DNA of 63,431 nt, the filler included, from Sphaeroforma arctica JP610 (lineage: Eukaryota), in NCBI RefSeq assembly GCF_001186125.1. It is 8 parts of 3 records of this genome, joined end to end, with 100 filler letters (N's around TTAATTAATTAA, not from the genome) between each part and the next. Parts side by side here need not be neighbours in the genome. Positions count along the whole stretch, not along the records: positions 9,870 to 30,758 come from NW_014040545.1; 7 more parts are not named here. One strand, 5' to 3'. The notes below the pieces were generated by a model that was not told the origin of the DNA, made no database searches, and saw only the letters and a list, made by a program, of their open reading frames with translations. Positions 1 to 30,758 of the stretch are shown piece by piece; within the stretch, counting starts at the first letter, position 1; each line of letters opens with the position of its first letter. The translations under genes and the position numbers were made by a program.

Positions 1-510
1 GAGAGACTGCTGTTGTGCCATCAGCTCCGTGAGTTTCTGAGCTGACGATTGTTCCCGTGCCGTTTCCTTGTTGTTGGTACGGCGCCGGTGACGCCTCCGC
101 TTGTTAGGTGGGAGGCGTGGTTGGTCATTACTGGGGGATAAGGCCCCTGGAGTACCCGAAGACGAGCGAGAGGACAGACCTTTACTGGCTACCTGTTCAC
201 CAATAAAAGTCTGACTTCTGTCCGCACGCAGGTCGGGCACTTCCTTGGTCTCATCCTCGATTATGACATCCTCGTCAGACTTTGCAGGTCCATCTTTGTT
301 TGCTGTTGGTGGCTGCTTGTCGTCCGCGGGAACAGGGTGTGGAGCCCCAAGATGTGTCTGTTGTTGCCCCTCCAGAGCCTGACCTGAGTGCGGAGCGGAG
401 CGTTCCGTATGGGACTGACGACGTTTAGTTCCACGTCGGTCGATATCATCTTCCTTGCGGCGCTCAGGATTCAAGAGTTGCTGTCTACGACTTTGGCGGG
501 GGTAGGACAT
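1..510 (-). pseudogene. gag: gag N-terminus of Gypsy family A
   Basis: Manual translation from 510 matches the gag start at 9654; it lies downstream of the family A 5' LTR and leader. Confidence 0.7.
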
Positions 511-582: not shown

Positions 583-1053
583 ATCCATTTTCTACTAAAT
601 TTCATCCTTCAAACACATAACGTCTCGACATCGATCTCCGAGGAGCTCGTGGTTCCCTCGTGACTGTTTCATTTCCTTCACTAACACCAGTAGTGTGGAT
701 AGTCTATCTACTTTAACACTACCTGCTGTCCTACTCTCCATCCCACAATAACGTGTGGTTGAGTGCCTCATTAGTCGGAGCAACTTCTTGGTCTACTCCT
801 CGCCTGCTCCTGTATCCATTTTCTACTAAATTTCATCCTTCAAACACATAACGTCTCGACATCGATCTCCGAGGAGCTCGTAGGTTCCCTCAGGTTCCCT
901 CATGACTGTTTCATTTACTTCACAAACACCAGTAGTGTGGATAGTCTATATACTCTAACACTACCTGCTGTCTTACTCTCCATCCCACAATAACGTGTGG
1001 TTGAGTGCCTCATGAGTCGGAGCAACTTCTTGGTCTACTCCTCGCCTGCTCCT
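583..1053. repeat. Tandem duplication (~230-240 bp x2) in the family A leader
   Basis: TATCCATTTTCTACTAAATTTCATCC...CTCGCCTGCTCCTG occurs at ~583 and again at ~813. Confidence 0.9.
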
Positions 1054-2356: not shown

Positions 2357-2605
2357 TGTAGTAAGTATACGCTAGATAATTGTATCTCAACGTTCTCCTT
2401 CCTCAGGGAGGGGGACATTGTTCATTTATTAATAATTATAAACAGTAATCCTAAGATGAATGACTCTTAAAATGAGTCATTAGTCATGTGCTGTGAAACC
2501 AGCAAAACCATAAAACCCAGTTTATCAGATTATTCTGATAAACTGTAAAACTTGTAATAAACCTAAAATAATCAAATAAATCTAAGTACTTGTATTCTGA
2601 CCACA
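2357..2605 (-). repeat. 5' LTR, Gypsy family A
   Basis: Minus strand reads TGTGGTCAG...TACTACA; highly similar to 15300-15551; preceded by CGAA on the minus strand. Confidence 0.92.
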
Positions 2606-3579
2606 TTCGTCTACTAGGAAGTGGTGAAATCCACCTGTGAGATCGAGCTTTGAAAAAAAACTGCGCCCCTTGTAGGTTGGGTAACACTTCCTTTATTTTT
2701 GGTAACACAAACTTGTCTTGTTCATATTGGTACTTGATCTCACGTAAGTCTAGACCTGTCCTGACGTTTTTGAGTAGACCTGTTTGGTCATGTTCACCTG
2801 TTGATAACAAAGGTAGGTTCACCGTTGTTGGCTTGTCGCGTTTGTATATGTGGCCATCGTGAAGCTATCGTTACACATTCTCATCCGTTTGTGGAATATA
2901 TTTGTGCGGAACAAAGTTGACTTTAGCGTGCCTCATTTGTCTGACGTCGATTTCATTTGCAGGTACTGTGACTGTAGAGCCTGGTAGGTTGCAGTGAACG
3001 TCAGGAGGTATAATCGCGTTGGTGTCCAGGAGGTCTGTCAGTGACTCTCTGAAACCTTCTCGTTCATGCTCTGGGTCCTCTTCATGTGGTGTGAAGACCG
3101 ATTCCCATTTTGGATCTGTTGGTATAAGTGGATTGATTAAACCCGTTATATATATACATATGTATGGTAGAATGTCCATACCTGGAAGTATTGGTGTTTT
3201 CTTTTCTGGCAAGTCCAGTACCTCAAAACACTCTGCCTCCATAGTTAATGTCACAAACTTCTGTTGGTCCAGTGCGTTGTATTCGTGCATCTGTTTGTGC
3301 TAGTTGTATGTAACCCGGTTGCGCTCTAACAGAAAGATATAGTTCTGATACTACACTTTTGTCCATGCATGAGCGTTGTGCGCCCGAGTCTACTAGTGCA
3401 TTGTATGTATTGTCATTAATTTGTATGTCAATGTTTAAACGTTGGTCTCGTGGTGCGGGAAGTAAAGATAAAGGTTGATAGTTTATATCATTTGCATTTA
3501 TTAGCAACGTTTCTTCATCTGTGAATACATTGAGTCTGTCAGCCAGGTCAATCATGTTTGCTTCCGCCCACCAGTGTTT
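2606..3579 (-). pseudogene. pol: pol N-terminal part (aspartic protease + RT start), family B, frameshifted
   Basis: DSG protease motif; RT N-terminal motifs homologous to those in the 11461-13161 ORF (VNLPLL, VRVCLDMR, IPKV). Confidence 0.85.
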
Positions 3580-4991
3580 TCAGTGCTCATCACCTTCAGT
3601 GATGTCTTCCACCTTGCCAGATGTGATGGAGGATCTTGCTATCTGCACATCTTTCTTGGCTTGTTGCAAAGCCTTCTTAGCTTGATTTGCTTTCTTCTCG
3701 GGACTTTCGCTGTACCGATGCACGCTCTTCACGTGCTCCTTTCTTTTCTGAGTCTGCCCCCCGTGTTTGTGCTGGTTGTGCGTACCATTGCCTGTCTTGT
3801 GACGTTTGTTGGCGTTCATAGAGTTATCCTCTACCTGCGTGTTCGCCTGTGTATTGTTGATTTGATTTGCATTATTTGCAGCTCGCGCCTGATCCCTCAA
3901 CATTCGCTCAGCTTTTGTTACTGACGCTATTCGTATGTGTGTCTCAGTCATAGTAGGAAACTTGGCATGTTCGATGTCAGACAAGTGTCCTTGACTTCCA
4001 TCAGGTTGCTTGTCTCCTTTGATTAGGATGTCCACTACTGATTGTAGTCCATCGTATTCCAGTGCTAGGTACCTTTGTACTTTGAGGTTTTGGAAGTGTA
4101 TGGGTTCCTTGTCTGAATTGCGATAACGCTCCTCTAACATTGCCATTGTCTTGTGCACACGCTCGGTGCGCACTTCAACATTCATATTCTTATTCTGCAT
4201 GCCATTGATAAACTTCTCCAATAGATAGTCTACTGGGTGCGATCTGAGTCGATCAATAATGGTTATATTGAACTGCTCAGGATCAGTGAAGTGCCTGGTT
4301 GTTTGTGTCTTAGAGTCTCTTATGTTATTGAGAACTGCTTTGGTTTCTCCGTTGCATCAGTGGAATCTAATAGCCTTCTCACTAGTGCTGGATACTGACA
4401 CAATGGCATTGACGTAGCTAAGAATAGATCACTACATTGTGTAATGAACTCTATGATATCCTCACAATTTTCCAATTTAAAGAAACTATCCATTGGCATT
4501 TTGGGAAACTCTGAAGTTTTGAGTATTTTCTTAAGAGGTGGTTCATTTATCTGGTCGCCTAATCGAGAACGCATGAGCTCTAGCTCACTAATGTACAGAC
4601 TGATTTGAATAAGTTTGTCTTCCTTATCATCACCGCAATCGTTGATCGCTTGATCATATCGTCGTCTGAGCTCCGCATCCACTAGTGGCATACGACGCTC
4701 TGGCTGTTGGTCATGTATGCCTACCCTCATCTTATGTAGAGCCGGTATGGGCACCTGTGCAGTTTGTTCCAATTTGGATACAAGCCGACTCACCAAGACA
4801 TGATTGCCTTGACAGATACTCTTGTCTATTTCTAGACGCATTGCTGAGGCTGCGATGGGTACCCCTACCGGTGTGGGTTGACCCGAGCTACTGCCTGGGC
4901 TTGCCTCCCCCCTTGGGCTGGCTCCCACGTCACCCGCGCTTTCACTACCCTCCCCTCCATCGTATACGCTTGTGCTGGTTGCCGTTGGCAT
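3580..4991 (-). pseudogene. gag: gag-like ORF of family B, split by a frameshift near 4320
   Basis: Two long ORFs lie between the LTR/leader and the protease. Assigned by position; no diagnostic motif recognised. Confidence 0.6.
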
Positions 4992-5285
4992 TTTTAGAAG
5001 TCTATGCGGATGTGTGGGTGGTAGTGGATTATTAGTGAAGACTAAGGATATCTTGCCTTCCCTAGATTTTGCTTTAAGTTTTTTGTATACTTGATCAGGA
5101 TCTAATTTGCCTTAGCGTGTGTTCGTGTAATATTCGAGTCTTGTCTTTTAGAATAGCGTAGCACTAGTGGTGTCTATTTTTGAATGTTGCCCTGTGTTTG
5201 CACTTTGATGGTAGACTTGTTGTAATTACCCTAAAGGTCTCGTGCTACGTGCTCTATTGAATTCACTTTGTGTACATCTGATTCT

Positions 5286-5782
5286 GATGTGTGTATTTGA
5301 TCGCGTCTGTCTTTCTTAAACTTAGCACGTTATGTACTATAGCTTGTACGTTGTAGACTGTAGCTTGCATTGTTCTGTGCATGTACGCTGCTAGCTGATT
5401 TGTGACTTGCAATGTGCTGGTGTGATTGTGTTGTTATGTGCATGCAATGATTTCACGGTGCCACGTGCATAAAGTTACTGTTGGTTGAATACGAGAACAG
5501 AGTGATGCGGTAGTGTCCTTTTTGTGATTGTGATTGATGTGTGTATGTGATCGCGTCTGTCTTTCTTAAACTTAGCACGTTATGTACTATAGCTTGTACG
5601 TTGTAGACTGTAGCTTGTATTGTTCTGTGCATGTACGCTGCTAGCTGATTTGTGACTTGCAATGTGCTGGTGTGATTGTGTTGTTATGTGCATGCAATGA
5701 TTTCACGGTGCCACGTGCATAAAGTTACTGTTGGTTGAATACGAGAACAGAGTGATGCGGTAGTGTCCTTTTTGTGATTGTG
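5286..5782. repeat. Tandem duplication (250 bp x2) in the family B leader
   Basis: GATCGCGTCTGTCTTTCTTAAACTTAGCACG...GTAGTGTCCTTTTTGTGATTGTGA is repeated with a 250-bp period. Confidence 0.92.
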
Positions 5783-6330
5783 ACATCCGGATGTTTTCTT
5801 GTTCGAAAATCTAGGAAAAATCCCAACCTTGATGAACTAATCACCGTGACAGCTTTCTCCTTTTTTCACTGTTTTAGCCTCCTTACATATCACTTCGTCA
5901 CTGAGACACGTTACTTATTCTTGCATAACTTTCACAACCCTCACTTGGACACTGCCTTTTTGTGCACACAATACTTTCGCTGGTGTAACGTGGTACTCAC
6001 TTTGGCATACGTTACCCTTGCAAACTCAATATGGTTACCTGGTTGTTTCTTCTTCTTTGCTTATAGAACAATGGAAGTAACTTCTTTCTGAATCTGCTCG
6101 TGCCCACGCTGCTGCTAGCCTCTGGTTGTTGAGAGTCCTCTATCCTCTTTCTTTTGCGGTTCATGTTCTTTGAAGCCTCTCTGCTGGGTCTTTCTTCGTC
6201 GTTATCGGTATCCCCTGTGTGATATTTTTTAATAAAGTTGAAGCCTCGTAGTATGCTGCTTCACTCTGCTTCCTTCTTGGTTGTAGAGTGTAAATTGTTA
6301 GATTTATCTAAGTGAGGATATTGTAAAAAA

Positions 6331-6670
6331 TGTAGAGTATAGAGAGTAGCTGAAAGATACGAGACATTGGAATACAATAGACCTCTTCTTAAGTACGGAT
6401 ATCTCAGCTAGGAAAAGTCTCCAGTCTGATAGAACCGAAATGAGTCTTTATTTGTGTTTTCACTAGACTCAGGGTTTACTCGAGTGTTTCTCTCACACGC
6501 GGGAGTCCCGGTATATCTTTCCGGTTATAGCGCTAATATTTCTGATGACTCTAATACCAGAAATATTCCAATACTAATTCCAAAACCCAGTATTTGATTA
6601 ATCTGGGTTATGGGGTTTGTATTGGCTTTTTGATAATCTCTTTTTGATAATCTGGTTTCTAGATGCTACA
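6331..6670 (-). repeat. 5' LTR, Gypsy family B
   Basis: Minus strand reads TGTAGCATC...ACTCTACA; clearly homologous to, but diverged from, 17932-18252 (shared AGTCATCAGAAATATTAGCG, CTGAGTCTAGTGAA, GACTTTTCCTAGCTGAGATA, AGAAGAGGTCTATTGTAT). Confidence 0.85.
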
Positions 6671-6829
6671 TGTGATGGAGTATCGAGGATATTTAAGTCT
6701 CCTCGGTTGGTTGTACTTGGTCATTGGAAGTAAGTTCTTACGGATTATTGGCTTTTTTTACGAGTCCAATTAGCTCTTTACTGGCCGAGTTAAGAATTCC
6801 GGGGCTTTAGTCCCACCAAGGTTACAGAC

Positions 6830-8640
6830 AAAATACTCTTTGCCCTCACTGCATACTACTTTGTATGATCCGCCATATGGTGCTGTTAATTTATTCATTT
6901 CATCTTGATAATGGACCATGACAATGTTTCCTTCCTGGGAGTGTGCATACTTCTTTTATTATTTTCGGCCGTATGCTGCGCGCATCATCTCTTGATATTG
7001 CGCAGCATTAGTGTCTAGTCGTGTCCCGATTGCATCTTCTGGATTCTGCAGTGATACTGTCGTACTGGGTGCGTTCACTGATATGTTGTGGTATATGGGT
7101 TGGTTCTGTCTGCGACCAAAGTACACATGAAATCTCGGGGATTTATGTCGTCTTGAATGCGCGAAGCTTGTGACCCATAACATTTGTACAAAAGGAAGTC
7201 GCGAACACCAATCTGGGGTTTGTTTAACGGATTTTCGTAACAATAGCATGATGTCTCTATGTGATCGATCGTTTGCTCATAAGACTTTAGGTTGGTACGG
7301 GCGAGAGACGAGGTGTTGTGTCGGCGCTTGTTCAATGACTTTTGAGAGTATATCTGTTAGAGTGCTATGTGGGAGACTAAAAATAAAGTGCAAGTGTAAC
7401 TAAAGAGTTGTGGTGCGTTCGAATGAATTTATTGGTAATCCCACTCTCAGTTGTTGTTAGCGTGGGATGTGGGGGACTGATAGTAAAGTGCTAGTGTATC
7501 TAAAGTATGGTGCATTCGAATGAGTTTATTTATGATCTCACCCTCAGTTATATACTGATGATGTTTGTACTAGTGTCCAACCACTTGGGTTGGCCATGGT
7601 AAAAACTCGTATGATCAGTATGAGAAACCTTATGCAGAACACTTGAGCACTCGGATATATTTTCTAGAAATAAATACATCATATTCTCTGTTACTACACT
7701 CAGTCTCGGACCTCGGCTCTCGGCTAGCCGGTGGCCCGTATCCTATAAATAGAATAATCCGAGAAGAAATCTCAAATTACTCTTACGTTCTCTCGGGCTC
7801 ACCCACCTATACTTATATTAATTTGAGAACAAGTCCCAAATAACTCTCGGGCTGACGACGCAAAACGTTATTAACGTGTATAGGAATACGTCTACTACTG
7901 TAGTCACTCAGTAGTATACTGATGGCGTTTGTACTAGTGTTCAACCACTTGGGTTGGCCAGGGTAAAAATTCATGTGATCAGTATGAGAACCCTTATGCA
8001 TAACACTTTAATACTCTGATATATTTCTAGAAACATATATATCGCATTCGCTGCTACTTCTCAGTCTCGGGCCTCGGCTCTCGGCTAGCCAGTGGCCCGT
8101 GTCCTATAAATAGAATACTCTGAGAACAAGTCACAAATCACTCTTACGTCCACTCGAGAACAAGTCTTAAATTACTTTCGGGCTGACGGTGTAGAACGGT
8201 ATTAACGTATTTAGAAATACGACTACTCCTGTAGTCTCTCAATATCATTGACATATTTCATTTATGGGATTCATGGGAACATTATTGGTACTAGCGTTCT
8301 TGCTACAGTGGCTGCTGATTTGTCCATATTAGTCTGAGTATGACAAATGATGAGTGCATATCTAGCCAAACCAACAAGTATGTATGGCCTCTTTTTGAGT
8401 CCAATAGTGGGCCGACAGTGTCCACTTGAAATTCGTCAACTGGAAATGCGGCTGTGATTGAGTGTTTGGGAAAAATCCCTTTTTGGGAATTTCGCTTTGA
8501 GACACGGTACACATCCTTCAATGTATCTGTGTACATGTTGCTAAATTTGTGGCCGATCGTGTCTATCTGCTTGCAATTCATTTACCGGTTCCTCACGTAT
8601 GTAATGTCTCAAGTTGTGGTGTTGCTCGATGATGTTGAAG
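6830..8640 (-). pseudogene. Degenerate Gypsy integrase (family B-like), interrupted by a solo LTR
   Basis: FPVDEFQVDTVGPLLDSKRGHTYLLVWLD (8303-8581) and WCSRLPFVQML...SRRHKSPRFHVYFGRR (6959-7249) match the integrases at ~17230-17340 and ~14360-14460. Confidence 0.8.
7355..8241 (-). mobile_element. Solo LTR of Copia-type family with 5-bp TSD and internal tandem duplication
   Basis: TG...CA ends (TGTTAGAG / GTCTCTCA); ATATC direct repeat at 7350-7354 and 8242-8246; ~360-bp internal duplication (~7552-7910 vs ~7916-8241). Confidence 0.88.
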
Positions 8641-9320
8641 TGTTAGAGTGCAATGTGGTAGACTTTAAATTAAAGTGCATGTGTATGTATTTATTTATGA
8701 CCTCACCTTTGGGTTTATAATCAAGGTGTTTGTGCTAGTGTTCAGCCGCTTGGACTGGCCAGGGTGAAAACTCATATGGTCAGTATGAGAAACCTTATGC
8801 AGGAAACTATGACACTTTGAAGCTGTTCTATTTCGACTTCTCTGCAATTTAATTTCACGCTGATCACACGACATCTTTCCGCATAGGTTGTGACTCGCAT
8901 AGAACAGCAGCTATTTTTAGAGTGTTCCGGTTGGCAGACTTCGTCCACTCTCGGGAGCTTGTTGAGAAACCTAATCTGCTCTCGGAAGTCAGTTAAGTAT
9001 TAACTCAACTCTCAGGAGTAATTTAAGCAACTTGATTAGCTCTGAGGGTTTCCTGCTGTAAAATCTGGCCTGAGACCTGTAGTCTCTCACTCCGCCTCAA
9101 TTTCACAGTCAAGGGCTGAAGTCTGAAGGCTGAAAAGTGAAGACTGAAAACTGATGAAGGCTGAAGGCTGAAGACTGAAGATCTGGATTGTGAAATTGTT
9201 GACTCTGTAGATGGATCGGACGAAAAGTGTTGAACCGATCAATTCCTGTCAAAAAAAAGTTGACGTATTGGATTTGTTGAGGATTGACTCATCGAGTAAC
9301 GAACACAGGGATGACTTAAT
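8641..9320 (-). mobile_element. Copia-type 3' LTR (8641-9089) plus PPT and 3' internal remnant
   Basis: Minus strand reads TTGAGGCGGAG|TGAGAGACTACA...CTCTAACA; similar to 23584-24500 and 26413-26905. Confidence 0.8.
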
Positions 9321-9653
9321 ATCGGAGTAGAAGTAGTTCACACCGAATTCACGATATGATCCGACAAGTAGGGCATACTTCCGCACGAGCTTCGACGGAA
9401 GAGGAAGCACGACAAGATATTGTCGAGGTGATGTGTTCACGCCGAGACTCATCCGTCACTCGGAGTGTGAGCTGAAGTGGTTGGGAATGGGTAAGCCCGA
9501 TTTGCAAGGACAATCGTCAAGGCCCGGTTTATTCGTTGATCGAGCTCTAGGTTTGAAAAGGGTGTGTATGTGGTGGGGCGATATATTTTAAATCCGCCTA
9601 TAGTTCGATCTCACACATTTCTAAGACTCCAATTGAAATCAACTTTCTGCATC

Positions 9654-11319
9654 ATGTCCGACTCCCGACAAAGTCGTCGACAGCAGCACGTTAACCCTGA
9701 GCGCCGCAAGGAAGACGACATCGACGGACGCGGCACTAAGCGTCGCCAGCCCAATCCGGACCACATCAANNNNNNNNNNNNNNNNNNNNNNNNNNNNNNN
9801 NNNNNNNNNNNNNTTAATTAATTAANNNNNNNNNNNNNNNNNNNNNNNNNNNNNNNNNNNNNNNNNNNNGCACAAGAACAAGTATTAGCCAGACAGAACC
9901 CTCATGATAAGGAGGCGGTGAAGAATAGACAGGATCGATTAAGTACGAACCTGCGCCAACAACAGCAACGCCAGTGGGGCGAAAAAGAAGCGTCCAGTGA
10001 ATATGTACAGACACCTAAACGGCAAGAGAAGGAGACACCAGTGCCTCCGCCTACACCGGCTAGTATCGAGAAAAGCCGACAGGCGCTACACGCACGGATA
10101 CTACAATTAAGTGACGAGCTATGCCAAACAATCAAGGAGAATAACACGGCTCGAACTGAAGCTCTTCGGGGCGTGATTGAGACACTTCGAGCTACATTAG
10201 AGTCCCGACCAGTAGAGAAGCGTCTCGTACCTTCACCACGTACGTGACCTGATTGGCCGTCGAACAGATACTACCTACATGATATTATAGAACGGGACAC
10301 AAGAGGGGCTCTCCTCGAGGCGTTCAAGAACGCGCAAATCGCAGGGTTGGACGAGAGTTGGAACCTTACATAGTTTCATAAGGTACTATCTTACTTCAAG
10401 GCGGAGAAGTCAACACTGGACTACATCCGCGACAATTCTGAACGGTTGAAGACATGGACACCTCAGCTACAGATCGAACAGATCTGTTCGCACGAAACAC
10501 AAGCCACTGTCGATCCCGCGTTTCGCAAGTTAGCCAAGGGCCAAAGTCGGAACATGCACACTCCTCTTATGGAACAAATGTCACAGCTCATGGAGAACCA
10601 CAGGAGGGCACGTGAACGGTGCCAGACAGATGCCGACTTCCAACAGAATTTATTGAACCACTGCATTGTGCAACTGTTAGAAGAAGCTCTCAACGACCGT
10701 ACGTATGAACGTACAACTGATGGAGACACACGAGCTTATACAGCTGTTGAGCCTTGACATTCAGGATGCACAGCAACGTACGACAGCACGTCTCCAGAGT
10801 CGCAACAACCGCGAGGGCCCGACGACCAATGGAAGTCGCGACTACACCAATAGTCGCCCCAACCTACAGACGAGTAGACGACAAATGCAGAATTGGACTC
10901 AACGGTCCCAACCTACGGTACCAACGGCTTGTGTGGGGTGCCAGGCACAAGCGCCACCAGGTGGTAGGCACATCCCACGGTGTCATCATTTCAGGGCGTC
11001 GCAAGCGGTGAGCGCGGAGGGTCGGGCAAGGCTATACGACAACAACCGTCATTTGAGAGACGTACAATCGGTACACAGACCGTCCACAACATCAACCGCA
11101 GGACAGGGGCAGAATACATCCCAGACTAGAGACGTAGTCACAATACGTCCGACGCCTCAAGTACAGGTGAATGCGATTACACAGGACGGAGTCTTGGCTC
11201 TACCATCGGAAGCTACGGAGATCCATATCAACACGATTCTTCACGAAGACTTCGAGCACATGACGTCAACACCAAACCACGCCTATGAGACGTGGGAGTC
11301 GGTAGCCGATCACGCATGA
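9654..11319 (+). pseudogene. gag: gag of family A (spans an N gap; several stops and frameshifts)
   Basis: ORF fragments 9654-9769, 9918-10247, 10446-10757 and 10705-11319 lie upstream of the protease; C-x2-C...H...C cluster near 10930-10985. Confidence 0.65.
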
Positions 11320-14300
11320 GAGGTGAGGGTGTCTGAGTCGGATAGGAGCTTCATATTTGTTACCACGATTGGAGCAGTGATGGCAATACAAGACCCATTG
11401 CTGACGTCAGATAACTGAGTCTATATTCAAGTACAAATCAACAGACGTACGTTCAAATCCTTGATAGACACGGGAGCAAATAGAAGTTGTATCTCACAGA
11501 CATCCGCAGACCTCCTTGGCCGACCAATAACTCCGGCACCACCTGGGTCATTTATATATTTAGCTGACAAGGCGGTTCGAACTCCTCGACTGGGGACGAC
11601 GGAAGTGGTACCTATAAGGTACGGCACCAGAATTATCGACGGTTCATTGGAATTGATGAACTTGCCGGCTGGTATAGATGTCATAGTGGGGCAAGATATG
11701 TTGAAAGGCTTGGGCCTATACATAGGCGGTATCCGATCGCCACTTGCACCAATAGACCCCATACCACGCCGACAAGCACCTAACACGCCGGAACCCGTCG
11801 ATGTACGCCAACGGTTGGCACAAGATTTGGAAGCCAATGCGAAGATTGCCGACAACGCACGCTGTCGTCTGGAAGGGAGTGAGGTAACCATCCCAGTAAC
11901 CCATGAACAAGCGATGCAGATGCGTAAATCGACGCGTAACTTCGTATCCGATCGATGGCTCCCCTATGTGGATGAACAAGTGAAGAATTGGTTGACGGAT
12001 TTGGTGATTACGAAACGAACGACACCAACGACTGTTAATCTTCCTCTCCTTGCGGTACCGACATTCGATGCGGAAGGCAACGTCAAGAAGGTACGCGTGT
12101 GTTTAGATATGCGTGCCGTTAACGCGCTTATTCCTGGTATCCAGTTCTTGATCCCCAAGGTCAACGAACTCATATCTCGCCTCAAGAGTAAGAAGTACTA
12201 CACGACGCTGGACATATCGGCTGCATACCACAGGCTGCCCATCCATCCAGACTCACAATACTTATTTAGTTTTACACACGAACGTTATCAGTACTCGTTC
12301 ACATCAGCACCGTTCGGTCTTCGTGTACTCACGCAGCAGTTCCAACGTACCTTGAGTACGATACTTGATGGCTTACCGGTTCACCACTATATCGATGACA
12401 TAGTTATCGCTAGTGACGATTATGACGAACACGTTAGGACGGTGCAGAAGGTGATACAACGCTTAACATACCACAGTTTTAAGCTTAACCCTGCCAAGTG
12501 CCACTTCGCTATTTCCGAAGTCATGATCCTAGGGAAGAAAGTATCGGCACAAGGCATTGACATTGACCATGAAAAGCAGGCCAAGCTGATCGACTGGCCC
12601 ACACCACTACGGTGCAAAGATATAGCCTCGGCGTTGGGTTTAGCAAATTACCTCCACGAACATCTGCCTAATTTCGCGAACACGGTCGCACCCTTGCACG
12701 AATTTTGCAAACTCAAACCAAAGGAGTTGATAGGTGATCGTTGGGAGGAGAGACATGCACAGGCGTGGCAGGCAATGAAAGACGCAGTGGTGAATGCTGT
12801 GGCGCTACACTTTCCGGTCGACGGCATTCCTTTGAACTTGGAAACCGACGCTAGCGATTACGGTTTGGGGGGAGCGCTATTCCAATGGGTCGACGGTAAG
12901 AAACATTACTTAATGTTCTTTAGTAGGACTCTGAACCATGCGCAACAGAACTACGCCACACCTATGAAGGAGTTACTGGCATTGGTATATGTACTGACAC
13001 ATTTCAGGGAATACTTGGATGGGCAACGGTTTGCGGTCTTCACGGACCACAAGGCCCTTGTGTATATGAACATACAGCTCAAGCTCATCATATCATTGCG
13101 CCATTCAACTTCACCATATCGCATATACCAGGAGAGACAAATGTGCTCCCGGACATGTTAAGTAGAGTACACGAGGGGACAGCGGAGCAGGACGAACTCG
13201 AAATAACGTACACAGACTGCTGGTAGTTATTCCCTAGTTACTTTGAACAAGCGCAACAACACTTCGGACCGAATGACATGGATGTATTTGCGGACCCAAC
13301 CAACGCTCAGCTTCCTCGGTTCTGGACGAAGGATGATGGGGGAGGAGCGTTTGCCCACGACTGGTCGATAGTCGATGGATGGATGGACCCGCCATGGAAA
13401 CAGATACACAGGATGTTACGCAAGATACGAGCCGACGGCGCACGGGCCACAGTATGTCTACCATGGGTACCAAGAGCACCATGGTTTGACCTGTTCAAGC
13501 AGTTATTGCAGACAGAACCGGTGCTGGTACCACGGACACCACACACGTTCCTCAAGTACGCTAAGTACGCATGTGGGAAGACACCATGGGGTCATACGGT
13601 AGTAGCACGGGTGGGTCCTCCCAATGGGTTCAAACTGGACCCGCTGTTTTCACAGCGACTTGGTTATGCAGAACCAAAGCATACAAAATATGTCATGTGC
13701 TTAGATACAGCGCGAGAAATCTCAGTGGCAATGGCAGATGCAGAGGGTCAACCGGCGTTTGAACAAGCGAGTCCGGAGGAGAAACAGCGCCGTACGCAAC
13801 TCACGCAAGCGCAACACGAACAAGGACATCATGGGGCGGCGGACACAGTCCAACAACTTCGTCAGAGCGGTCATGTTTGGCCAGGGGCACTTGAGTTAGC
13901 CACAGAGGTTAAGCGGCAATGTGGCACATGTTTGGGACAGGACACACTTAGTAAAGTTTCCACCCGATGATTAGCATCGATGTACGCTACGCGTGGGACC
14001 ATATTCAAGTGGACTACATCCCTATGCCACTGGAGTCCAGACGCAAGAACAATTATATTCTTCACGTCTTGGACATCGCCACAGGCTATTCTATCCTTCG
14101 AGCCACACCGGACAAGACAAAGGAAACCACGACACAGACACTCATAGAGATTTTTGGCTAACATGGCTTCCCTCGTAAAATCCAAACAGACATGGGGAAT
14201 GAGTTCACTAACAAGATAGTGGAGCTACTGGTGCAAGAAGTGGGGATGCTACATAAGGTGTCTCCACCATATCGACCCCAAGTGCTGGGCGCGGCGGAAC

Positions 14301-15066
14301 GACGTCATAAGGAGATTACACGTTCTATTCGACAATGCTGTGAGGCAGTTCCCCTTCGATGGGACGAACGCCTTCCGTTTACGATGCTATACCAGAACCT
14401 TCGGATATCCCGCCGCCATAAAAGTGCACCGTTTAGCGTGTACTTTGGCCGCCGCCATGTTCCGTTCGCCGATTTCACGGACGAGTTACCGGATTCTCAG
14501 CCGATGACGAATGACACCTGGGCACAACGATTAGACCAGTTACAGGACACTATATTGCCGACCCTCCACCACATTACCAAGAAGTATACAGGCAAGGTTA
14601 CGACGACATTTGACCGCCTGCATGCTCACGATTGGTACATTTCGTCGAAGGAGATGTGGTCATGGTATGATCAGAAGGCCGAACAACTAAGGCTATGCGG
14701 CCATTGTTTGGACCATATGTAGTCAAAGCTAGACACGGTCAACGCTATGAGTTAGCGAACAAAGATGGTTCCGCCCCACCAGAATTCAAGGACAAACCGG
14801 TACGGGTGGAACTCCTCCGTTTAGTGCATAGACACACAGACCCACCAATCAACGAAGACTTATGGACCGAAGGAGGGGTTGAGTTTTGCCATATTATCAC
14901 ACACCGTACGAATGGTGAGACGGGGAAATTAAAATACCTGGTGAGATGGCGAGAAGGCAAACCAACGTGGGAAACAGCAGAAGCTTTTGATGATGCCAAC
15001 GATATCGCGGCCTACCACAAACCTTCGCAGACACGGACACGTAAACGCCAACGCGCACAAATCTAA
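11320..15066 (+). pseudogene. pol: pol polyprotein of family A (protease, RT, RNase H, Dam-like methyltransferase, integrase, chromodomain), disrupted
   Basis: ORF pieces 11461-13161, 13278-13970, 13967-14161, 14192-14722 and 14695-15066 carry the motifs in order; stops/frameshifts at ~11416, ~13085, 13224, ~13945, 14159 and ~14630. Confidence 0.93.
13215..13620 (+). other. Dam-like amino-methyltransferase domain inside family A pol
   Basis: DCW*LFPSYFEQAQQHFGPNDMDVFADPTNAQLPRFW...AFAHDW...WMDPPWKQIHRMLRKI...ATVCLPWVPRAPWF; DPPW at 13386-13397; same frame as the RNase H end and the integrase HHCC. Confidence 0.88.
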
Positions 15067-15126
15067 TGATAACTCTTTGTCGACCATTCGGTCGAACGGT
15101 ACGCTCGAACCGTGATCTTCGAGCCC

Positions 15127-15222
15127 TCTAGCTCTCAGAGGTTAAATGCCAGCACACTGCTCTAGCTCTCGGAGGATAACTGCCAGCACACTGCTCTAGC
15201 TCTCAGAGGATAAATGCCAGTA
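15127..15222 (+). repeat. ~32-bp tandem repeat x3 in the family A 3' UTR
   Basis: CTCTAGCTCTCRGAGGWTAAMTGCCAGCACACTG units. Confidence 0.85.
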
Positions 15223-15299
15223 CATAAGGTACTATGTTATTCTTATCATCTCTGAAACTGGCACACTGCTTTGTTGAGTGCTTCAGTTGGGGGGGGAGT

Positions 15300-15551
15300 T
15301 GTGGTCAGAATACAAGTACTTAGATTTTTTTTTGATTATTTTAGGTTTATTACAAGTTTTTACAGCTTATCAGAATAATCTGATAAACTGGGTTTTATGA
15401 TTTTGCTGATTTTACAGCACATGACTAAAGACTCATTTTAAGAGACATTCATCTTAGGATTACTGTTTATAATTATTAATAAATGAACAACGTCCCCCTC
15501 CCTGAGGAGGGAGAACGTTGAGATACAGTTATCTAGCGTATACTTACTACA
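15300..15551 (+). repeat. 3' LTR, Gypsy family A
   Basis: Follows the PPT; TGTGGT...ACTACA; contains AATAAA; followed by CGAA. Confidence 0.93.
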
Positions 15552-16555
15552 CGAAGCAAGCCAACAATTCTTCACATTCTCGTGGAGAGGAGCGCAATAC
15601 TCATTCAAGTCTGCGCCGTTTGGACTACACTCACTCACAGCACATTTCCAGAGAGTCATGGCAAATCTGCTCATAGATATCAAAGGAGTGTAAGTGTATG
15701 TATATGACATAGTCATTGCGAGTCTTACAGAAGAAGAACACCACAAGACAGTTCGTGAAGTAATCAAACGACTAAACAGCGCGAACTTCCGACTCAATCA
15801 CAACAAGTGTGCCTTCGCGGTCAAAGTGGTCAACATTCTTGGGGTGAAAGTCATCACACAGGGCCTCTAAGCAGACCCCGAGAAACAGAAAAGAATGATG
15901 GACTGGCCACTACCCAGGACAAAAAGAAATCTGCACAAAGCAGTGGGACTAGCAAATTACATGCGAGACCATGTCCCCAACTTTGCCCATACAACGAAAC
16001 ACTTTCGGAACCTAATGAAAGGAAAAATGAACCAGAACATATCCATGTTATGGACACTGGAACTAATCAAGAAGTGGGAAGAACTCAAAGAAGGCATCGC
16101 CTGTTCATCGACGCTAGCATACCCTGTTGATGGGGTACCGTTTCAAATTATCAATGATGCTAGTGACTATGGCATAGGAGGGTGTTTATTTCAAGTCATT
16201 GATGGAGTCAGAAGAGACATTTTCTACTTCTCAAAAGGCTTGAATCCAGCACAACAACGCTATGGCACAAATACCAAAGAGCTACTAGCACTGGTATATA
16301 GCCTGGAACATTTCTCCGAATACATCAAAGGGGGGGGGACATAACACTGTGGACAGATCACAAAGTGCTCACGCAAATGAACAGTCAACAGACGTTACAC
16401 CCAATGCTAGCCAAGTGGATAGCAAAAACGTTCCACCACCACTTCTCCATCATACATGTCCCAGAAAAGTATTACAGCAGGCGAATGAGGCAACACATAA
16501 TAGCCAAGAGCACACCACCTTGGAAACGAACATGCCCATAACCATCTCGGCTATA

Positions 16556-16935
16556 GACTGGATGTTACATCCCAGATTCTACCAAGAAACGGAACGAAGA
16601 TTTGGGAAGTTCACAGTATATCTGTTTGCATCGGCACACAATGCGCACACAAATAAATACTACACCAAAGAACAGAATGCGCTAAAACAAAAATGGGCGC
16701 AAGAAGTTAATGCACGGGTGAATCCACCATGGGAACTCATACCTGATATCCTTGACAAAGTCATTGAAGAGGCAACCAGCATCACGATATGTGTACCATA
16801 CTACCCCAAAGTTCTTGTCCTTACTAGAAGAAGACCCGATACTAGTGGAAAACACTAACAACACGTTCCTCAAAGAGGGCAAGAAGGCTTGCGGCAAGAC
16901 CCCATGGGGTGTCACATTAGTCGCAAAGATAGGAG
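16556..16935 (+). other. Dam-like amino-methyltransferase domain inside family B pol
   Basis: DWMLHPRFYQETERRFGKFTVYLFASAHNAHTNKYYTKEQNALKQKW...VNPPWELIPDILDKV...ITICVPYYPK, then after a frameshift at ~16810 LLEEDPILV...ACGKTPWGVTLVAKIG; NPPW at 16721-16732. Confidence 0.88.
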
Positions 16936-17931
16936 CTAAGTCTCCATACTTCGACTCAACGCGAGAACAACTTGCTATACACGTTGCAGTGTCGGAACCA
17001 GTTCACTCTGGAGATGCACCACAGGCAACAGAATATGAGACACGTGTCAGCTTCAATGAGCAATACCACAACTTGGGACATTACACTTCTGAGGAAACAA
17101 TACACAAGTTACAAACAGATGGACATGATTGGGCTGATATACAACAACATGTACACAAGTTCATTGACGGATGTATACCATGTCTCAAAAATAAAATACA
17201 CAAGAAGGGATTTCACCCCTTACAATCAATTACAGCCGCGTATCCAAGCGACAGAGTCCAAGTGGATACCATAGGGTTACTTTTGGATTCCAATAGAGGA
17301 CACACATACGTGTTAGTATACCTTGACGTATACTCATCATAACTCCATACTCTACACACAGGCCTCCATTCAAGGTGATAATCCCAGGAGTTTCTACTGC
17401 AATGGACAGATGGGAAGCGTACATGGAAGCATGAATCAGAAATCGGATATGCTGATGTTCTAACACTATACAGTCAACGCACTTGACCCAAACGAAGGCA
17501 ATCAAGGCCGACGAAATCAACAGCAACGAGCACTGATGTAAGATTAGCGAGCAACAGAAGGTGCACAAGGCGGACGTAGCCAAGTTTCACTGATACCAAG
17601 GTCACTCCCACTTTTCTCATCTGGAAGCATGCTCCGCCCGAAAGCCAGAGGGATAAGGACAAAGACTGAGTTTTAGAGCCACCGTTTTCTAAATCAAGTT
17701 GAGATCAACCGAGAGCACAGGTCAAGACTAACTACGTGGGTAAGAACTCCCGTCATAGTACAATTAATGAATAATGTATGTAAGCATAAATAATGGAGAC
17801 AAGTTTTCATCTTTACCCCCTTAAGGACAAGTCATTTTTCCCTGTACAAAAAACACCAAGCACTAGGTAATTTAGTACTATAAGATGCCACTTTCTACTT
17901 CTACGAGGCTAGAAGCACAAATTTGGGGGGC

Positions 17932-18866: not shown

Positions 18867-21379
18867 TACATAATTTTTTTTTAATACTTAGAAAATGTTG
18901 CACTTTTGCATTTTTACACACACGTTTATTACATCGATCTTTATTGTTGTTGTTCATGTTGTAGCACTTTTGTCAATTGCTTGTCCTTTCTGATCTCACG
19001 TATTAGGCCCGCAATGCTTAGAGTTTCACCAAATGCATGATAGAGCTTCTCAATCGACAAATCTATCGAATTACCGCGGGCGTTGAGCCTCTCCATTGCC
19101 CTCCAGAAAGTTAGTCGAAAGCTATAAACTCCCTTTACACTACCTCTCTCTGCACGCGTAAAAAGACTCGCCGGTTTGTTTCCATTTATACCTCTCTCGT
19201 ACTCGTCCCAGAGTATTCTGAGCGATTTCGGACCGTCTATCAACTCTGCGGGACGATTATCGCTGTTGTTACTGTTGCTGCTTTCACCATTGTTGTGTGT
19301 GCTCTCACTATTTGCATTATCGTTGTTGTTTGGCTGGTTTCCGCTAGTAGCAATTTGTCTTGCACGGAAATTCATGGTGTTGAACTGGCTCATCAGCACA
19401 CGCCGTGTGCGCTTGAGCTCCGCCCTCAGCTGCTGAATTCGTGCGCAACCTTTTGCTTCGGAAGTCTGTAACATTTGTTTTAAATTTATAACTTCTGCCA
19501 TCAAGGATATAATTTGATTTTGTAATTCTGTAACATTGGTAGCATTAGGATTAGCATTGGAACTGATGCCTTCTACCTCCTGAGCACAGAAATCGTCAGC
19601 ACCTGCAGTGATGGTGACAACTGGCACACGTAAAACAACCTTCCGTATTTCGTCATCTGATATATTTGGACTGATATTCTTGATCAGGGTGATACAATGT
19701 TCATGAAAAGTATCATGGACGAGAATACTTCTATCAAGACCCAGCTACAACGCTACTGTAGCTATTATTCTTTTGTGGTGCGCGTGCAAAAAAGGAAGAT
19801 CGTATAGACCTTCAACAACTGTACTCAAAACTTCAGTGGTAACAATAGCACTAAAATCATTGCTAACACGATACTTACAGGCCCCACGCGGTCCACAAAG
19901 AATTTCAGACACTCTCGCATCAGGGAACGGCATAAGATCACTTGAATAGGTATCCACTTGTCTAGTCCCTCGTATTTGACTTCCGCCCATCTTACTCTTT
20001 GCCCATCTACCTCGAGCCTCCGCATGATCTTTTGTGAGTCCTCGTCGCTGTATATATGTTGCACTACATTTACGCATACTATGCGTACCAAGTTCATTTA
20101 TCTCTCCTTTGGCCTTAAACTCGGGTAAAGAGATAATCTTTTTGATTCTACTGCGTGACACATCGGTTCTTAATTTCTCGTCTCGACCAGTCGATCCATT
20201 GGATGTGAACATATAGCCGAGATCTAAGTTGCTAAATGTTGAACGACCACGAAGTCGATCAATGATATGTGCTGTGAGTGCTGATAGTGCACAAATATAT
20301 GGGTCTAGAGATCCAAGAACAACTTGTCTACTCACTTGCGATTTCTTAGCAATGTTTTTGCTCCTAGCTATCTCAAGAAAAACCTCATCAGGATGGTCTT
20401 CGTTGTATTTTAGATTACTGTATGTGATATTCGTCGCATCATCTACACGACATATCAACTGGAAAGTCCATGTCCATAAACCATGTAGCCCGCTATCCTG
20501 GAAAGCAGTATTTTCGATGTTGATCGTTAGAATAGACATAATCTCATCGAACTTTAGGGGTCGTTTGGATAAGTCCGCATTTCTTTCACCTCTTGTCTCA
20601 AAACGTTCGATCGCTTTGAGCAAGTCATTTACCTGTCCAGAACGAGTTGGATTCCCTTTCATTTCCACTGGATCCCACTCCAAGCGTTTACGTGGCATAA
20701 ATTTAGATATCGATTTTTTTTATGAACTCTAAGCCAGCTTTCCTACGTTGTGAAGGGTAGTCTTCTGGTCCTGCATCTTCCGTCCCATAGGCCAACTTAT
20801 TGAAGTAGTCACAAATATCTGATGGCAAGATGTCTATTAACTCAGAATATAGTATCATTTGCGTGTCAGGATACTCTTCGTCCCAGTTTTTTTTTCTGGC
20901 CTCCAATACTCCAAAAACCGTCTCATGTTCTTGACATATTCTACCATAACCTTAGCCTGCACCATCTTTATGTGAACTAGTATGCTATACTTATGAACAA
21001 TACATGCACTTAGTGTGATTTTTGTTTAATTTTTAATTTTTACTATCTTGCAGCTTCACACGGTGTTAAATGTGTATACGACCTTTGCGAAAATGTTGTT
21101 TTTTTCACGCGGGATTTACGCCAAAGGAATTTCAGGGATTTCAAAAGGTCAAACAGGGTTGTACAAAACGCTACATTTGTACTACCTACTGTATGACTTA
21201 TGAATTGATGAAAGCTGAAAAATATATTCTTGGAGTAAAAAACACCTTTGCAATTTGAGTCAATTTGTTAAAGTAGTTGCAAAGTTATGTAATGAAAAGT
21301 AGTACAGCCTATCGGATCCAACGAATCGTCATTATACCATCGCGGAGTATGACCATGGTCGTACAACCGATATAATACA
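18867..21379 (-). mobile_element. Crypton-type tyrosine-recombinase DNA transposon (~2.5 kb) with TACA direct repeats
   Basis: TACA at 18867-18870 and 21376-21379; removing the insert restores the Copia LTR; contains a YR ORF, with no RT and no TIRs. Confidence 0.85.
18941..20965 (-). pseudogene. Tyrosine recombinase + C-terminal GCR1_C-like domain (Crypton protein)
   Basis: GNPTRS..VN, ICRVDD (R), SKNI (K), LGTHSMRK (HxxR), RGRW, VDTY (Y); C-terminal LWDEYERGINGNKPA..F...ERG...YSFR..FW. One in-frame TAG (19745-19747) and two homopolymer frameshifts (~20715, ~20890). Confidence 0.85.
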
Positions 21380-21839
21380 GTAGTAGACGTATTTCTATTT
21401 ACGTTAATAACGTTTCACGTCGTCAGCCCGAGAGTAATTTGGGACTTGTTCTCAAATTAATATAAGTAAAGGTGGGTCAGCCCGAGAGAACGTAAGAGTA
21501 ATTTGAGACTTCTTCTCAGATCATTCTAATTATAGAATACGGGCCACCGGCTAGCCGAGAGCCGAGGTCCGAGACTGAGTGTAATAACAGAGAATATGAT
21601 ATATTTATTTCTGGAAAATATATCCGAGTGCTAAAGTGTTCTGAATAAGGTTTCTCATATCGATCATGTGAGTTTTTACCCTGACCAACCCAAGTGGTTG
21701 AACACTAGTACAAACACCATCCTGATATAACTGAGGGTGATATCATAAAAAAATTCATTCGAATGCACCATACTTTACATACACTAGCACTTTATTATTA
21801 GTCCCCACACTGCACTCTAACACCATAGGCAACAAGATA

Positions 21840-29925: not shown

Positions 29926-30758
29926 TTATTGGCGTTGTGCCGCTTTCTTCTTCTGGCGAGTTTGCTCGGCTTTTTGGTATGCAGCGATATCATTCGGATC
30001 GTCAAAAGCTTCGGCTGACTCCCAAGTTGGATCACCTTCCCGCCAGCGTACCAAGTATTCTGTATTTCCTGTGGAATCATTCTGTCTATGTCGAATGATG
30101 TAACGGAAAGAGGAACTATCCTGCCACATATGATCTTCTAAAGGGTTTTAGGTGGCACTATGGACTAATCGCAAAAGTTCCACTCTAACTGGTTTATATT
30201 TGAAAGTATCTGGAAGTGAACCATCCTTGTGTGTCAGTTCATATCCTTGTCCCTGTCTGGCTTTGACAACGTATGGTCCAAACATTGGTCGCATTGCTTT
30301 GGTTGTGCGACCTTCGGACAGCACCATTACCACATCCCATGGTTGAAAGGCGATAAAATCGTAAGCATGGAGGCGATCAAACTGCCTGGATAGTGTATCT
30401 GCGTATTTCTGCGTGACCTTGTAAAGCGTCGGCAAGATAGTGTCGTACAAACGATCCAGCCGGTGTGCCCAAGCCTCATTGGTGACCGGCTGATTCCCCG
30501 GAAAGTCATCCGTGAAATCAGCAAACGGAACATGACGGCGACCGAAGTCAGCACTGAATGGTGCTGTCTTGTGTCGCCAAGATATTCGGAGGTTCTGGCA
30601 CAGCATAATAAGTGGTAGTCGGACATCCCATGCAGTAGGTAAAGGTTCACATAGCTTGCGAACTCCTTCGTGTATGTCTCTGTGTCTTCTCTCCGCTGCT
30701 CCCAGAACCTGAGGACAATTTGGTGGCGACTTCGCATGCACCACTCCAACTTCTTGAG
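29926..30758 (-). pseudogene. pol: Gypsy family A-like integrase C-terminus + chromodomain, cut by an N gap
   Basis: GAAERRHRDI...WDVRLP...FGRRHVPFADF...MFGPYVVKAR; YLVRWREGDPTWESAEAFDDPNDIAAY; homologous to 14250-15066. Confidence 0.92.

What the first reader, a model, noticed from the sequence alone, without database searches (positions are those of the whole stretch)
13091..15066. Ty3/Gypsy chromovirus-like retrotransposon carrying a Dam-like DNA methyltransferase between RNase H and integrase
Seen: reading from ~13092 gives HIPGETNVLPDMLSR (RNase H end), a short linker, then DCW*LFPSYF...FGPNDMDVFADPTNAQLPRF...AFAHDW...DPPW...ATVCLPW..RAPWF. The same frame runs into the integrase HHCC (H-x3-H...CGTC), followed by the DDE core, GPY and a chromodomain. 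Established: W-x-L...F...FGP..D-x-F-A...N...[DN]PP[WY] is the phage-type Dam (PF05869-like) amino-methyltransferase pattern. It is known directly after RNase H in DIRS1-type tyrosine-recombinase retroelements and is not part of the canonical Gypsy PR-RT-RH-IN pol. Inference: this is a DDE-integrase LTR element (TG..CA LTRs, TSD) that encodes its own DNA-methylation writer next to a chromatin reader. It may methylate its cDNA (6mA or 4mC) within the particle or intasome, to evade silencing or mimic the 6mA of active genes known in some unicellular eukaryotes. Whether this is undescribed needs a literature and database check.
Basis: partly seen in the sequence, partly recalled or inferred. Interest (0 to 1): 0.92.

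Follow-up and report, generated by a model that had tools for sequence, protein, structure and literature searches.

The report
Methylase-carrying Gypsy retrotransposon, hidden chromodomain
This is a broken copy of a Gypsy-type jumping gene from a single-celled relative of animals that carries a methylating-enzyme module, likely used to mark its own new copies; a 2026 preprint already reported such elements, but this one also has a chromatin-reader-like module that the preprint says its lineage lacks.

Summary
A Dam-like N6-adenine methyltransferase domain (Pfam PF05869 above cut-off; model pLDDT 96) lies between RNase H and a DDE integrase in a Ty3/Gypsy LTR element of Sphaeroforma arctica or a near relative. 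The element has TG..CA LTRs and a 4-bp target duplication, and is nested in the RT of a second DAM-bearing family. This copy is dead (2 stops, 3 frameshifts), but other copies lack these lesions and an intact relative has the whole order in one ORF. bioRxiv 10.64898/2026.05.21.726589 already describes DAM-LTRs, including an ichthyosporean lineage in this species; this scan also noted two related elements in other genomes. Additions here: (1) the element and several lineage relatives, including an Abeoforma protein, end in a divergent chromodomain lacking two cage aromatics, which the preprint says the lineage lacks; (2) the closest solved fold is the RNA methylase PCIF1, not Dam; (3) in passing, two Dam-bearing Ty1/Copia proteins. 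Likely mechanism (inferred): adenine methylation of reverse-transcription intermediates, seeding host-maintained 6mA. Activity has never been shown.

The parts
2357..2605 (-). 5' LTR (249 nt, TG..CA) of the element, on the scaffold piece that lies in the opposite orientation
   Evidence: 10 mismatches in 249 aligned bases to 15300-15551; flanked by CGAA
510..2356 (-). Long 5' leader (1.85 kb) with a 242-nt tandem duplication; no primer-binding site recognised
   Evidence: One contig of run X2 runs from PPT-like sequence through LTR and leader into the gag start (record 18 and loose end at 2605); no match of 7 nt or more for self-priming on the LTR
1..509 (-). Start of the gag-like ORF, running off the window start
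   Evidence: Open frame from ATG; 79% alike to a second gag start at 9598-9760. The name gag is by position; no Pfam scan was run on it
9870..11418 (+). Rest of the gag-like region, with stops
   Evidence: Three-frame translation; assignment by position
11425..11706 (+). Aspartic protease (DTG)
   Evidence: PF13975 E 8.8e-8
12085..12534 (+). Reverse transcriptase (YIDD)
   Evidence: PF00078 E 6.7e-21; best PDB hits 4OL8 and Ty3 Gag-Pol 7Q5B, E about 5e-48
12742..13166 (+). RNase H, with a copy-specific 22-nt deletion at 13085
   Evidence: PF17919/PF17917; table 4
13215..13640 (+). Dam-like (PF05869 / PCIF1-clade) N6-adenine methyltransferase domain; DxFA and (N/D)PPW motifs; stop at 13224 in this copy
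13782..13931 (+). Integrase HHCC zinc finger, same frame as the methyltransferase
   Evidence: PF17921 E 3.8e-4, below cut-off; motif read
13991..14400 (+). Integrase catalytic core D(14012)-D(14189)-35-E(14297), stop at 14159 in this copy
   Evidence: rve hits; 84-85% identical to the open P0152, rve E 9.7e-12; residues counted
14671..14859 (+). GPY module / SH3-like integrase tail
   Evidence: GPY invariant in 19 of 19 aligned rows
14881..15021 (+). Divergent chromodomain, central Trp kept, first and third cage aromatics missing
   Evidence: Pfam Chromo E 4.3e-5; PDB sequence hits are chromodomain proteins by their names; Foldseek rows all chromodomain entries; profile test
15126..15227 (+). 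Three 34-nt tandem repeats in the 3' untranslated region
   Evidence: family D5
15289..15298 (+). Polypurine tract, 1 nt before the 3' LTR
15300..15551 (+). 3' LTR (252 nt, TG..CA)
15552..15555 (+). Target-site duplication CGAA (partner at 2606-2609 on the - strand)
   Evidence: uninterrupted target seen as a loose end at 2606 in 4 contigs of run X1
15552..17483 (+). 3' part of the interrupted second DAM-LTR family (RT end, RH, Dam, IN start, chromodomain-like remnant at 17388-17480)
   Evidence: Dam E 5.1e-13; 87% identical in RH to the intact P0004; tail 15.9 bits with the lineage profile
2606..5111 (-). 5' part of the interrupted second family (gag-like, PR, RT start)
   Evidence: tblastn; RT reads ...HFLVDE | ASQQFF... 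across the insertion
29944..30756 (-). Sister copy: integrase core end, GPY, chromodomain
   Evidence: 61-80% amino-acid identity by part, pN 0.13-0.28 against pS 0.75-0.84; Chromo 27.5 bits, above cut-off

Best explanation
This is a decayed copy of an ichthyosporean DAM-LTR, a Ty3/Gypsy retrotransposon whose Pol has the order protease, RT, RNase H, Dam-like methyltransferase, integrase, GPY, chromodomain; in intact copies the methyltransferase likely puts N6-methyl groups on adenines of the RNA:DNA hybrid or nascent cDNA inside the particle, the host enzyme AMT1 would then keep the mark at ApT after integration and so favour transcription, and the chromodomain likely helps steer integration into repeat-rich chromatin. 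Shown here: identity, domain order, LTRs, TSD, family-wide presence, both folds (as predicted models), and the nested insertion. Shown by the preprint: more 6mA and more expression on DAM-LTR copies than on other LTRs in S. arctica and A. whisleri. Inferred: enzyme activity, substrate, timing, hand-over to AMT1 and the chromodomain's role. The domain is only about 140 residues with no separate target-recognition domain, so it probably gets its substrate from sitting next to RT-RH or IN rather than from a sequence motif.
For: Identity: (window RT in a 12-row clade with Abeoforma P0005/P0008, SH-aLRT 97, inside a 17-row clade of 15 integrase-bearing and 2 truncated proteins, 99, apart from 39 integrase-less DIRS-like rows; quick tree, 58 rows). 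Family feature: P0004 is one 1288-aa ORF PR-RT-RH-Dam-IN; Dam is as conserved between the two families (42%) as PR-RT-RH (41%) and the integrase core (41-47%). Catalytic motif: NPP[W/F] in 97 of 148 homologous domains, DxFA in 139 of 148; family copies read NPPW. Fold: pLDDT 95.9; best match PCIF1/CAPAM by Foldseek (E 4e-5) and VIA-align (Z 10.3, 127 of 138 aligned, rmsd 2.9; E. coli Dam Z 8.1, T4 Dam 7.7). [quoted passage not shown] Chromodomain; purifying selection pN 0.28 vs pS 0.84. Insertion into another retrotransposon.
Against: No retroelement Dam-like domain has shown activity: the preprint's E. coli expression gave no 6mA rise. Iyer et al. judged DIRS1 MTase domains likely inactive (PMC4738411), and 18 of 148 homologues have FPPF, 11 no PP-aromatic motif. 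The 6mA excess could come from AMT1 marking transcribed LTR promoters. ApT is not enriched in the LTRs, leader or pol (obs/exp 0.85-1.06). The PCIF1 lead over other MTases is modest (Z 10.3 vs 8.9; 14% identity) and a shared fold shows no substrate. The chromodomain lacks two cage aromatics, so methyl-lysine reading is doubtful; one nested insertion in a repeat-rich window is weak evidence of targeting.
Confidence: 0.45

Rival explanations
1. The domain is catalytically silent or nearly so and serves as a nucleic-acid or protein binding module of Pol; 6mA on these elements is laid by host AMT1 because they are transcribed.
For: Negative E. coli assay; Iyer et al.'s reading of DIRS1 domains as inactive; motif loss in part of the homologues; no ApT excess.
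Against: NPPW and DxFA are kept in the LTR-clade rows of alignment A2 and across two families only 41% alike; the preprint says the 6mA excess holds after allowing for length and age.
Confidence: 0.25
2. The domain is an RNA methyltransferase like PCIF1: it marks the element's own genomic RNA (cap-adjacent or internal adenosine) to aid packaging, stability or translation.
For: Closest solved fold is PCIF1 by two methods; Iyer et al. place DIRS1 MTases in the PCIF1 clade; one homologue has a faint PCIF1_WW Pfam hit (P0048, E 0.011); PCIF1 prefers RNA.
Against: Sequence profile is Dam PF05869 with a weak phage methyltransferase hit (E 4e-4); the preprint's tree nests the clade among prokaryotic DAMs and links DAM-LTRs to AMT1-bearing hosts (9 of 13); PCIF1's other domains are absent.
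Confidence: 0.2
3. The domain methylates duplex cDNA at a fixed motif (6mA or 4mC), as bacterial Dam does, to shield it from host nucleases or editing before integration.
For: Dam Pfam hit and NPPW motif, which amino-methyltransferases of both kinds share (own knowledge).
Against: No target-recognition domain in the 138-residue model; no 6mA rise on E. coli DNA; 4mC enzymes rank far down the fold list (8S9O, E 0.059).
Confidence: 0.09
4. The arrangement is a chance nest or mis-assembly of a DIRS fragment inside a Gypsy element.
For: The window is fragmented, repeat-rich, and one piece is inverted.
Against: Same order in a second family in the window and in intact single ORFs (P0004, P0007, P0008, P0013 and others); 9870-30758 has no gap; contigs bridge RH-Dam and Dam-IN (X5 records 24 and 26).
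Confidence: 0.01

Closest known systems
Ichthyosporean DAM-LTR lineage (Fernandez-Moreno et al., bioRxiv 10.64898/2026.05.21.726589; Pirum, Abeoforma, Sphaeroforma arctica)
   Same: Host lineage (P0001 from S. arctica is 88% identical); Ty3/Gypsy RT; Dam domain in one clade with Abeoforma P0005/P0008/P0009, Pirum P0010 and S. arctica P0017/P0059 (28 rows, support 99, FastTree; names).
   Different: The preprint says this lineage lacks chromodomains. This element, its sister copy, the second family and Abeoforma P0008 have a divergent chromodomain-like tail that mostly falls below Pfam's cut-off.
Chlorophyta DAM-chromovirus-like clade and EpiLTRs (same preprint)
   Same: Dam-like domain plus C-terminal chromodomain in a Gypsy Pol.
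   Different: Different host group; no C5-methyltransferase here; canonical-chromodomain DAM-LTRs among my hits (P0015, P0030, P0061) lie outside the 12-row RT clade.
DIRS1-type tyrosine-recombinase retrotransposons with an MT domain
   Same: Same domain directly after RNase H; most Dam hits with an RT are of this RT-RH-MT-end type.
   Different: DDE integrase, direct TG..CA LTRs, 4-bp TSD, protease, Gypsy RT; no tyrosine recombinase between the LTRs.
PCIF1/CAPAM cap-specific adenosine N6-methyltransferase
   Same: Closest solved fold (Z 10.3, 127 residues); NPP-aromatic motif.
   Different: 14% identity; only the MTase core; sits in a retrotransposon polyprotein; substrate unknown.
Group II chromodomains of plant chromoviruses (PMC3350952)
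   Same: Lacks the first and third cage aromatics, keeps the Trp and the TWE motif.
   Different: That paper reports group II only from plant Gypsy elements; likeness here may be convergent and was not tested by a tree.

Membership tests
Ty3/Gypsy LTR retrotransposon | Pol order PR-RT-RH-IN | tested here: met
   Pfam on the window pieces and on intact P0004
Ty3/Gypsy LTR retrotransposon | RT of Ty3/Gypsy type | tested here: met
   Best PDB hits 4OL8 and Ty3 Gag-Pol, E about 5e-48, ahead of foamy virus and gammaretrovirus RTs; groups with integrase-bearing elements. No named reference Gypsy or DIRS RTs were in the tree
Ty3/Gypsy LTR retrotransposon | Direct TG..CA LTRs, PPT and target-site duplication | tested here: met
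   the two LTRs lie in opposite orientation in the scaffold, which I read as an inverted first piece
Ty3/Gypsy LTR retrotransposon | Primer-binding site after the 5' LTR | tested here: inconclusive
   No self-priming match to the LTR; host tRNAs not available, no genome held
DAM-LTR (bioRxiv 10.64898/2026.05.21.726589) | Dam-like domain with NPP-aromatic motif in the Pol of a non-DIRS LTR element | tested here: met
   this copy alone reads DPPW
DAM-LTR (bioRxiv 10.64898/2026.05.21.726589) | Raised 6mA on insertions | not testable with these tools
   Needs modified-base reads; reported for S. arctica DAM-LTRs as a group in the preprint
Ichthyosporean DAM-LTR lineage | Dam and RT group with Pirum, Abeoforma and Sphaeroforma elements | tested here: met
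   (quick and FastTree methods, 179 and 145 columns)
Ichthyosporean DAM-LTR lineage | No chromodomain, as the preprint describes the lineage | tested here: not met
   Chromodomain found. So I file it under DAM-LTR and as a variant of, or correction to, the described lineage
Chromovirus | Chromodomain at the integrase C-terminus after GPY | tested here: met
   P0152 holds rve and Chromo in one ORF and is 76-85% identical to the window pieces
Chromovirus | RT inside the named chromovirus clade | not tested
   No named chromovirus RTs were available for the tree
Chromovirus, group I chromodomain | Full aromatic cage (Y24, W45, Y48 of HP1) | tested here: not met
   Alignment shows V, W and no third aromatic in the window copy; definition from PMC3350952
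DIRS1-type retrotransposon | Tyrosine recombinase instead of DDE integrase; no protease | tested here: not met
   rve, HHCC and protease present between the LTRs
EpiLTR | C5 DNA methyltransferase in addition to Dam and chromodomain | tested here: not met
   Pol ends 15 codons after the chromodomain; no such Pfam hit in the window pieces, P0004 or P0152

The most novel reading that the evidence does not exclude
The retroelement 'Dam' is a PCIF1-type enzyme that marks the RNA:DNA intermediate (or the RNA) rather than duplex DNA, which explains the failed E. coli assay; in ichthyosporeans it travels with a cage-less chromodomain overlooked so far, so writer plus reader is the rule in this lineage; and the capture extends to Ty1/Copia elements, a superfamily not mentioned in the preprint's main text.
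Probability: 0.3. Interest if true: 0.65.

Novelty: new variant of a known kind. Interest (0 to 1): 0.33.

Why it matters
DAM-LTRs are a fresh, unsolved case of transposons that may write a host 'active' DNA mark on themselves. The class is already reported, so this copy is not a discovery in itself. It does sharpen the open question in two ways: the PCIF1-like fold names the substrates to test (hybrid, ssDNA, RNA) after duplex DNA failed, and the overlooked chromodomain means the animal-related lineage with the best 6mA data has both a writer and a reader-like module. Dam-bearing Copia proteins, if confirmed, would add another independent capture.

Tried and rejected
Word-index search for long relatives of the Dam-ZF piece found 0 of 1223 candidates; the HMMER search then found them. 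Sequence search of the Dam domain against PDB gave 1 chance hit. No RNA holder was listed among 24 runs; runs guessed to be RNA were laid but are contigs and say nothing on expression. The careful RT tree did not finish; the quick tree is reported, with 11 cluster duplicates named for removal (58 of 68 RT rows kept). The Dam tree is FastTree on 145 columns with many open forks. dS is saturated or near it in all six window comparisons, so only pN and pS are quoted. ApT enrichment and self-priming tests were blank. A metagenome scan for the Copia-Dam protein P0062 found 70 pattern matches and 0 relatives, so its LTRs and host are unseen. The VIA-align search of the chromodomain model and an atlas search of the Abeoforma tail did not complete, so those two checks are missing. 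Rejected: DIRS identity; copy-specific insertion; DPPW as the family motif; the tyrosine-recombinase-like ORF at 19745-20719 as part of the element (outside the 3' LTR, opposite strand). Paper searches for a Copia-Dam report (2 unrelated listings) and for ichthyosporean chromodomain retrotransposons (3 listings, one the preprint; the other two not read) found nothing further.
Full report
Observation. The RNase H end, the Dam-like block and the integrase HHCC share the frame of 13092; the DDE core and the GPY-chromodomain tail are each in another frame, and protease-RT-RNase H is an open frame from 11419. Pfam gives PF05869 Dam at E 9.2e-8, above its cut-off, and the expected Gypsy domains on both sides. 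The ESM atlas's first hit (0.95) is a cluster in which 14% of members carry Dam.

The copy is dead, the family is not chimeric. Contigs of 4 public runs laid on 12900-15320 read other letters at both stops and carry 22, 1 and 1 extra bases at the three frame breaks; these sizes put all pieces in one frame. The D of DPPW is private too; the family reads NPPW. No single contig spans the whole stretch, but the window itself has no gap from 9870 to 30758. A HMMER search of 1.84 billion representatives gave 1450 hits at E 0.001 or better, of which the best 150 were returned. I scanned 24 chosen long or close proteins with Pfam: P0004 is one 1288-aa ORF PR-RT-RH-Dam-IN, and P0007, P0008, P0013, P0014, P0015, P0018, P0021, P0030, P0034, P0061 and P0115 show RT-RH-Dam followed by an integrase domain. 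Dam is as conserved between the window copy and P0004 (42%) as PR-RT-RH (41%).

Host and anatomy. The nearest named proteins are from Sphaeroforma arctica JP610 (88%, 65% and 50% identity); further named hits are from Abeoforma whisleri and Pirum gemmata. The host is thus S. arctica or a near relative. A polypurine tract precedes a 252-nt TG..CA LTR at 15300-15551; its partner, 10 mismatches in 249 bases, is at 2357-2605 on the minus strand. Both are flanked by CGAA, and the flanks join to a continuous RT frame (HFLVDE | ASQQFF) of a second DAM-LTR family; uninterrupted copies of that site exist (loose end at 2606). So the element is nested in another DAM-LTR, and the piece 1-9769 is inverted, by assembly or by a real inversion (inferred; not separable here). 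One contig links PPT, LTR, the 1.85-kb leader and the gag start.

Gypsy, not DIRS. The best solved RTs are 4OL8 and Ty3 Gag-Pol. In a quick tree of 58 RT rows the window RT lies in a 12-row clade with P0004 and Abeoforma proteins (SH-aLRT 97), inside a 17-row clade (99) holding 15 integrase-bearing and 2 truncated proteins, apart from 39 integrase-less rows. No named reference elements were in this tree. The Dam tree puts both window families with Abeoforma, Pirum and S. arctica proteins in a 28-row clade (99).

The methyltransferase. AlphaFold2 with 64 rows gives pLDDT 95.9. Foldseek's only hits under E 0.001 (4) are PCIF1/CAPAM; VIA-align also ranks it first (Z 10.3, 127 of 138 residues, rmsd 2.9), ahead of rRNA methylases (8.9), M.TaqI (8.4), E. 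coli Dam (8.1) and T4 Dam (7.7). This agrees with Iyer et al., who place DIRS1 MTases in the PCIF1 clade and thought them inactive (PMC4738411, passages). NPP[W/F] is kept in 97 of 148 homologous domains, FPPF in 18. PCIF1 prefers ssRNA, then RNA/DNA hybrid, ssDNA and dsDNA (PMC9178792, abstract only).

The chromodomain. This copy scores 23.8 bits (cut-off 25.1), the sister copy 27.5. All 37 PDB sequence hits at E up to 1 and all 40 at E up to 0.05 for the two-copy profile are chromodomain proteins by their names, each weak alone. The model (pLDDT over 90 in this part) returns only chromodomain entries in the listed Foldseek rows, none under E 0.001. A profile from the tails of 10 relatives without a Pfam cut-off hit finds the canonical chromodomains of 3 of 3 test proteins (10.0, 24.3, 26.9 bits; shuffled maximum 0.3 of 120), and the window's three tails (31.4, 25.0, 15.9 bits). 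The reverse profile, from only 3 canonical domains, passes the shuffled maximum (4.2 of 400) in 5 of 10 relatives, among them Abeoforma P0008 (16.9); P0012 and P0011 score 3.9 and 2.7 at the right place, and P0004, P0009 and P0018 fail. The tails were cut from an alignment that held the canonical ones, a mild circularity. The domain keeps the central Trp and TWE but lacks the first and third cage aromatics, like plant group II chromodomains (PMC3350952, passages). pN 0.28 against pS 0.84 between two window copies points to purifying selection.

What is known. bioRxiv 10.64898/2026.05.21.726589 (whole main text read; supplements not seen) claims the first DAM domains in non-DIRS LTR elements, defines five lineages, includes S. 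arctica, finds more 6mA and expression on DAM-LTR copies, gets no activity in E. coli, and proposes methylation of RNA-DNA intermediates with AMT1 maintenance. It says the ichthyosporean lineage lacks chromodomains, and its main text has no 'copia', 'Ty1' or 'PCIF1'. Its domain screen used E 1e-5, which most tails here would miss. De Mendoza et al. 2018 (PMC5890265, passages) covers cytosine methyltransferases in Gypsy. The scan's own notes hold two related elements from other genomes and no sequence look-alike.

Mechanism. Most likely (0.45): Pol is packaged and cut; the small, target-domain-less enzyme next to RT-RH and IN methylates adenines on the hybrid or nascent cDNA; AMT1 keeps the mark at ApT after integration; the chromodomain biases integration to repeat-rich chromatin. 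Identity and architecture are shown (about 0.97); every catalytic and targeting step is inferred. Rivals: silent binding module (0.25), RNA methylase (0.2), Dam-like duplex protection (0.09), chimera (0.01).

Verdict. Real, and of a kind described in 2026 in the same species. What is added is the overlooked cage-less chromodomain, the PCIF1 pointer to substrates, and a side lead on Copia. Novelty: new variant of a known kind; interest 0.33.

Noticed in passing
P0062 (1248 aa, ENA) and P0043 (522 aa, JGI/IMG); P0048 (179 aa): Ty1/Copia-order proteins with a Dam domain just before RVT_2: P0062 reads Pol_BBD, gag_pre-integrase, rve, SH3, Dam (E 1.4e-12), RVT_2; P0043 reads Dam, RVT_2. Their Dam domains group with P0048 (support 92). 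'Copia' is absent from the preprint's main text. No DNA recovered.
   Followed up: partly
P0023 (2382 aa) and P0031 (2144 aa; 4 more cluster members): Polyproteins with the order (protease) - Exo_endo_phos nuclease - Dam - RT - RH - integrase and a very long RT branch: Dam before RT, plus an AP-endonuclease-like domain in an LTR-type Pol.
   Followed up: no
window 1-9769: This piece appears inverted relative to 9870-30758: LTR pair, TSD and the interrupted RT only fit that way; both its ends are gag starts of the same family pointing outward.
   Followed up: partly
window 18944-20719 (-): Two adjacent ORFs (324 and 267 aa) that look like a Crypton-type tyrosine recombinase plus GCR1_C domain; the recombinase motif is recalled, Pfam gave only a faint GCR1_C hit (E 0.085).
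   Followed up: no
window 6331-7351 (-) and 8333-8638 (-): Further fragments of the second family's integrase and 3' end, interrupted by other repeats.
   Followed up: no
window 7452-7902, 21376-21825, 8638-9043, 23581-24282, 26415-26905: A set of 370-450-nt repeats (78-93% alike), possibly LTRs of other families; 26126-26554 (-) resembles a Copia RNase H remnant (motif recalled, not scanned).
   Followed up: no
P0015, P0030, P0061: DAM-LTR polyproteins with canonical chromodomains (Pfam 46-49 bits) whose Dam domains fall in three different parts of the Dam tree, in line with repeated captures.
   Followed up: partly
window 43885-48086 (+) and 53311-54474 (+): Host-like ORFs: a Cys/Thr-rich, probably multi-exon protein and a 387-aa ORF with a hydrophobic start.
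   Followed up: no
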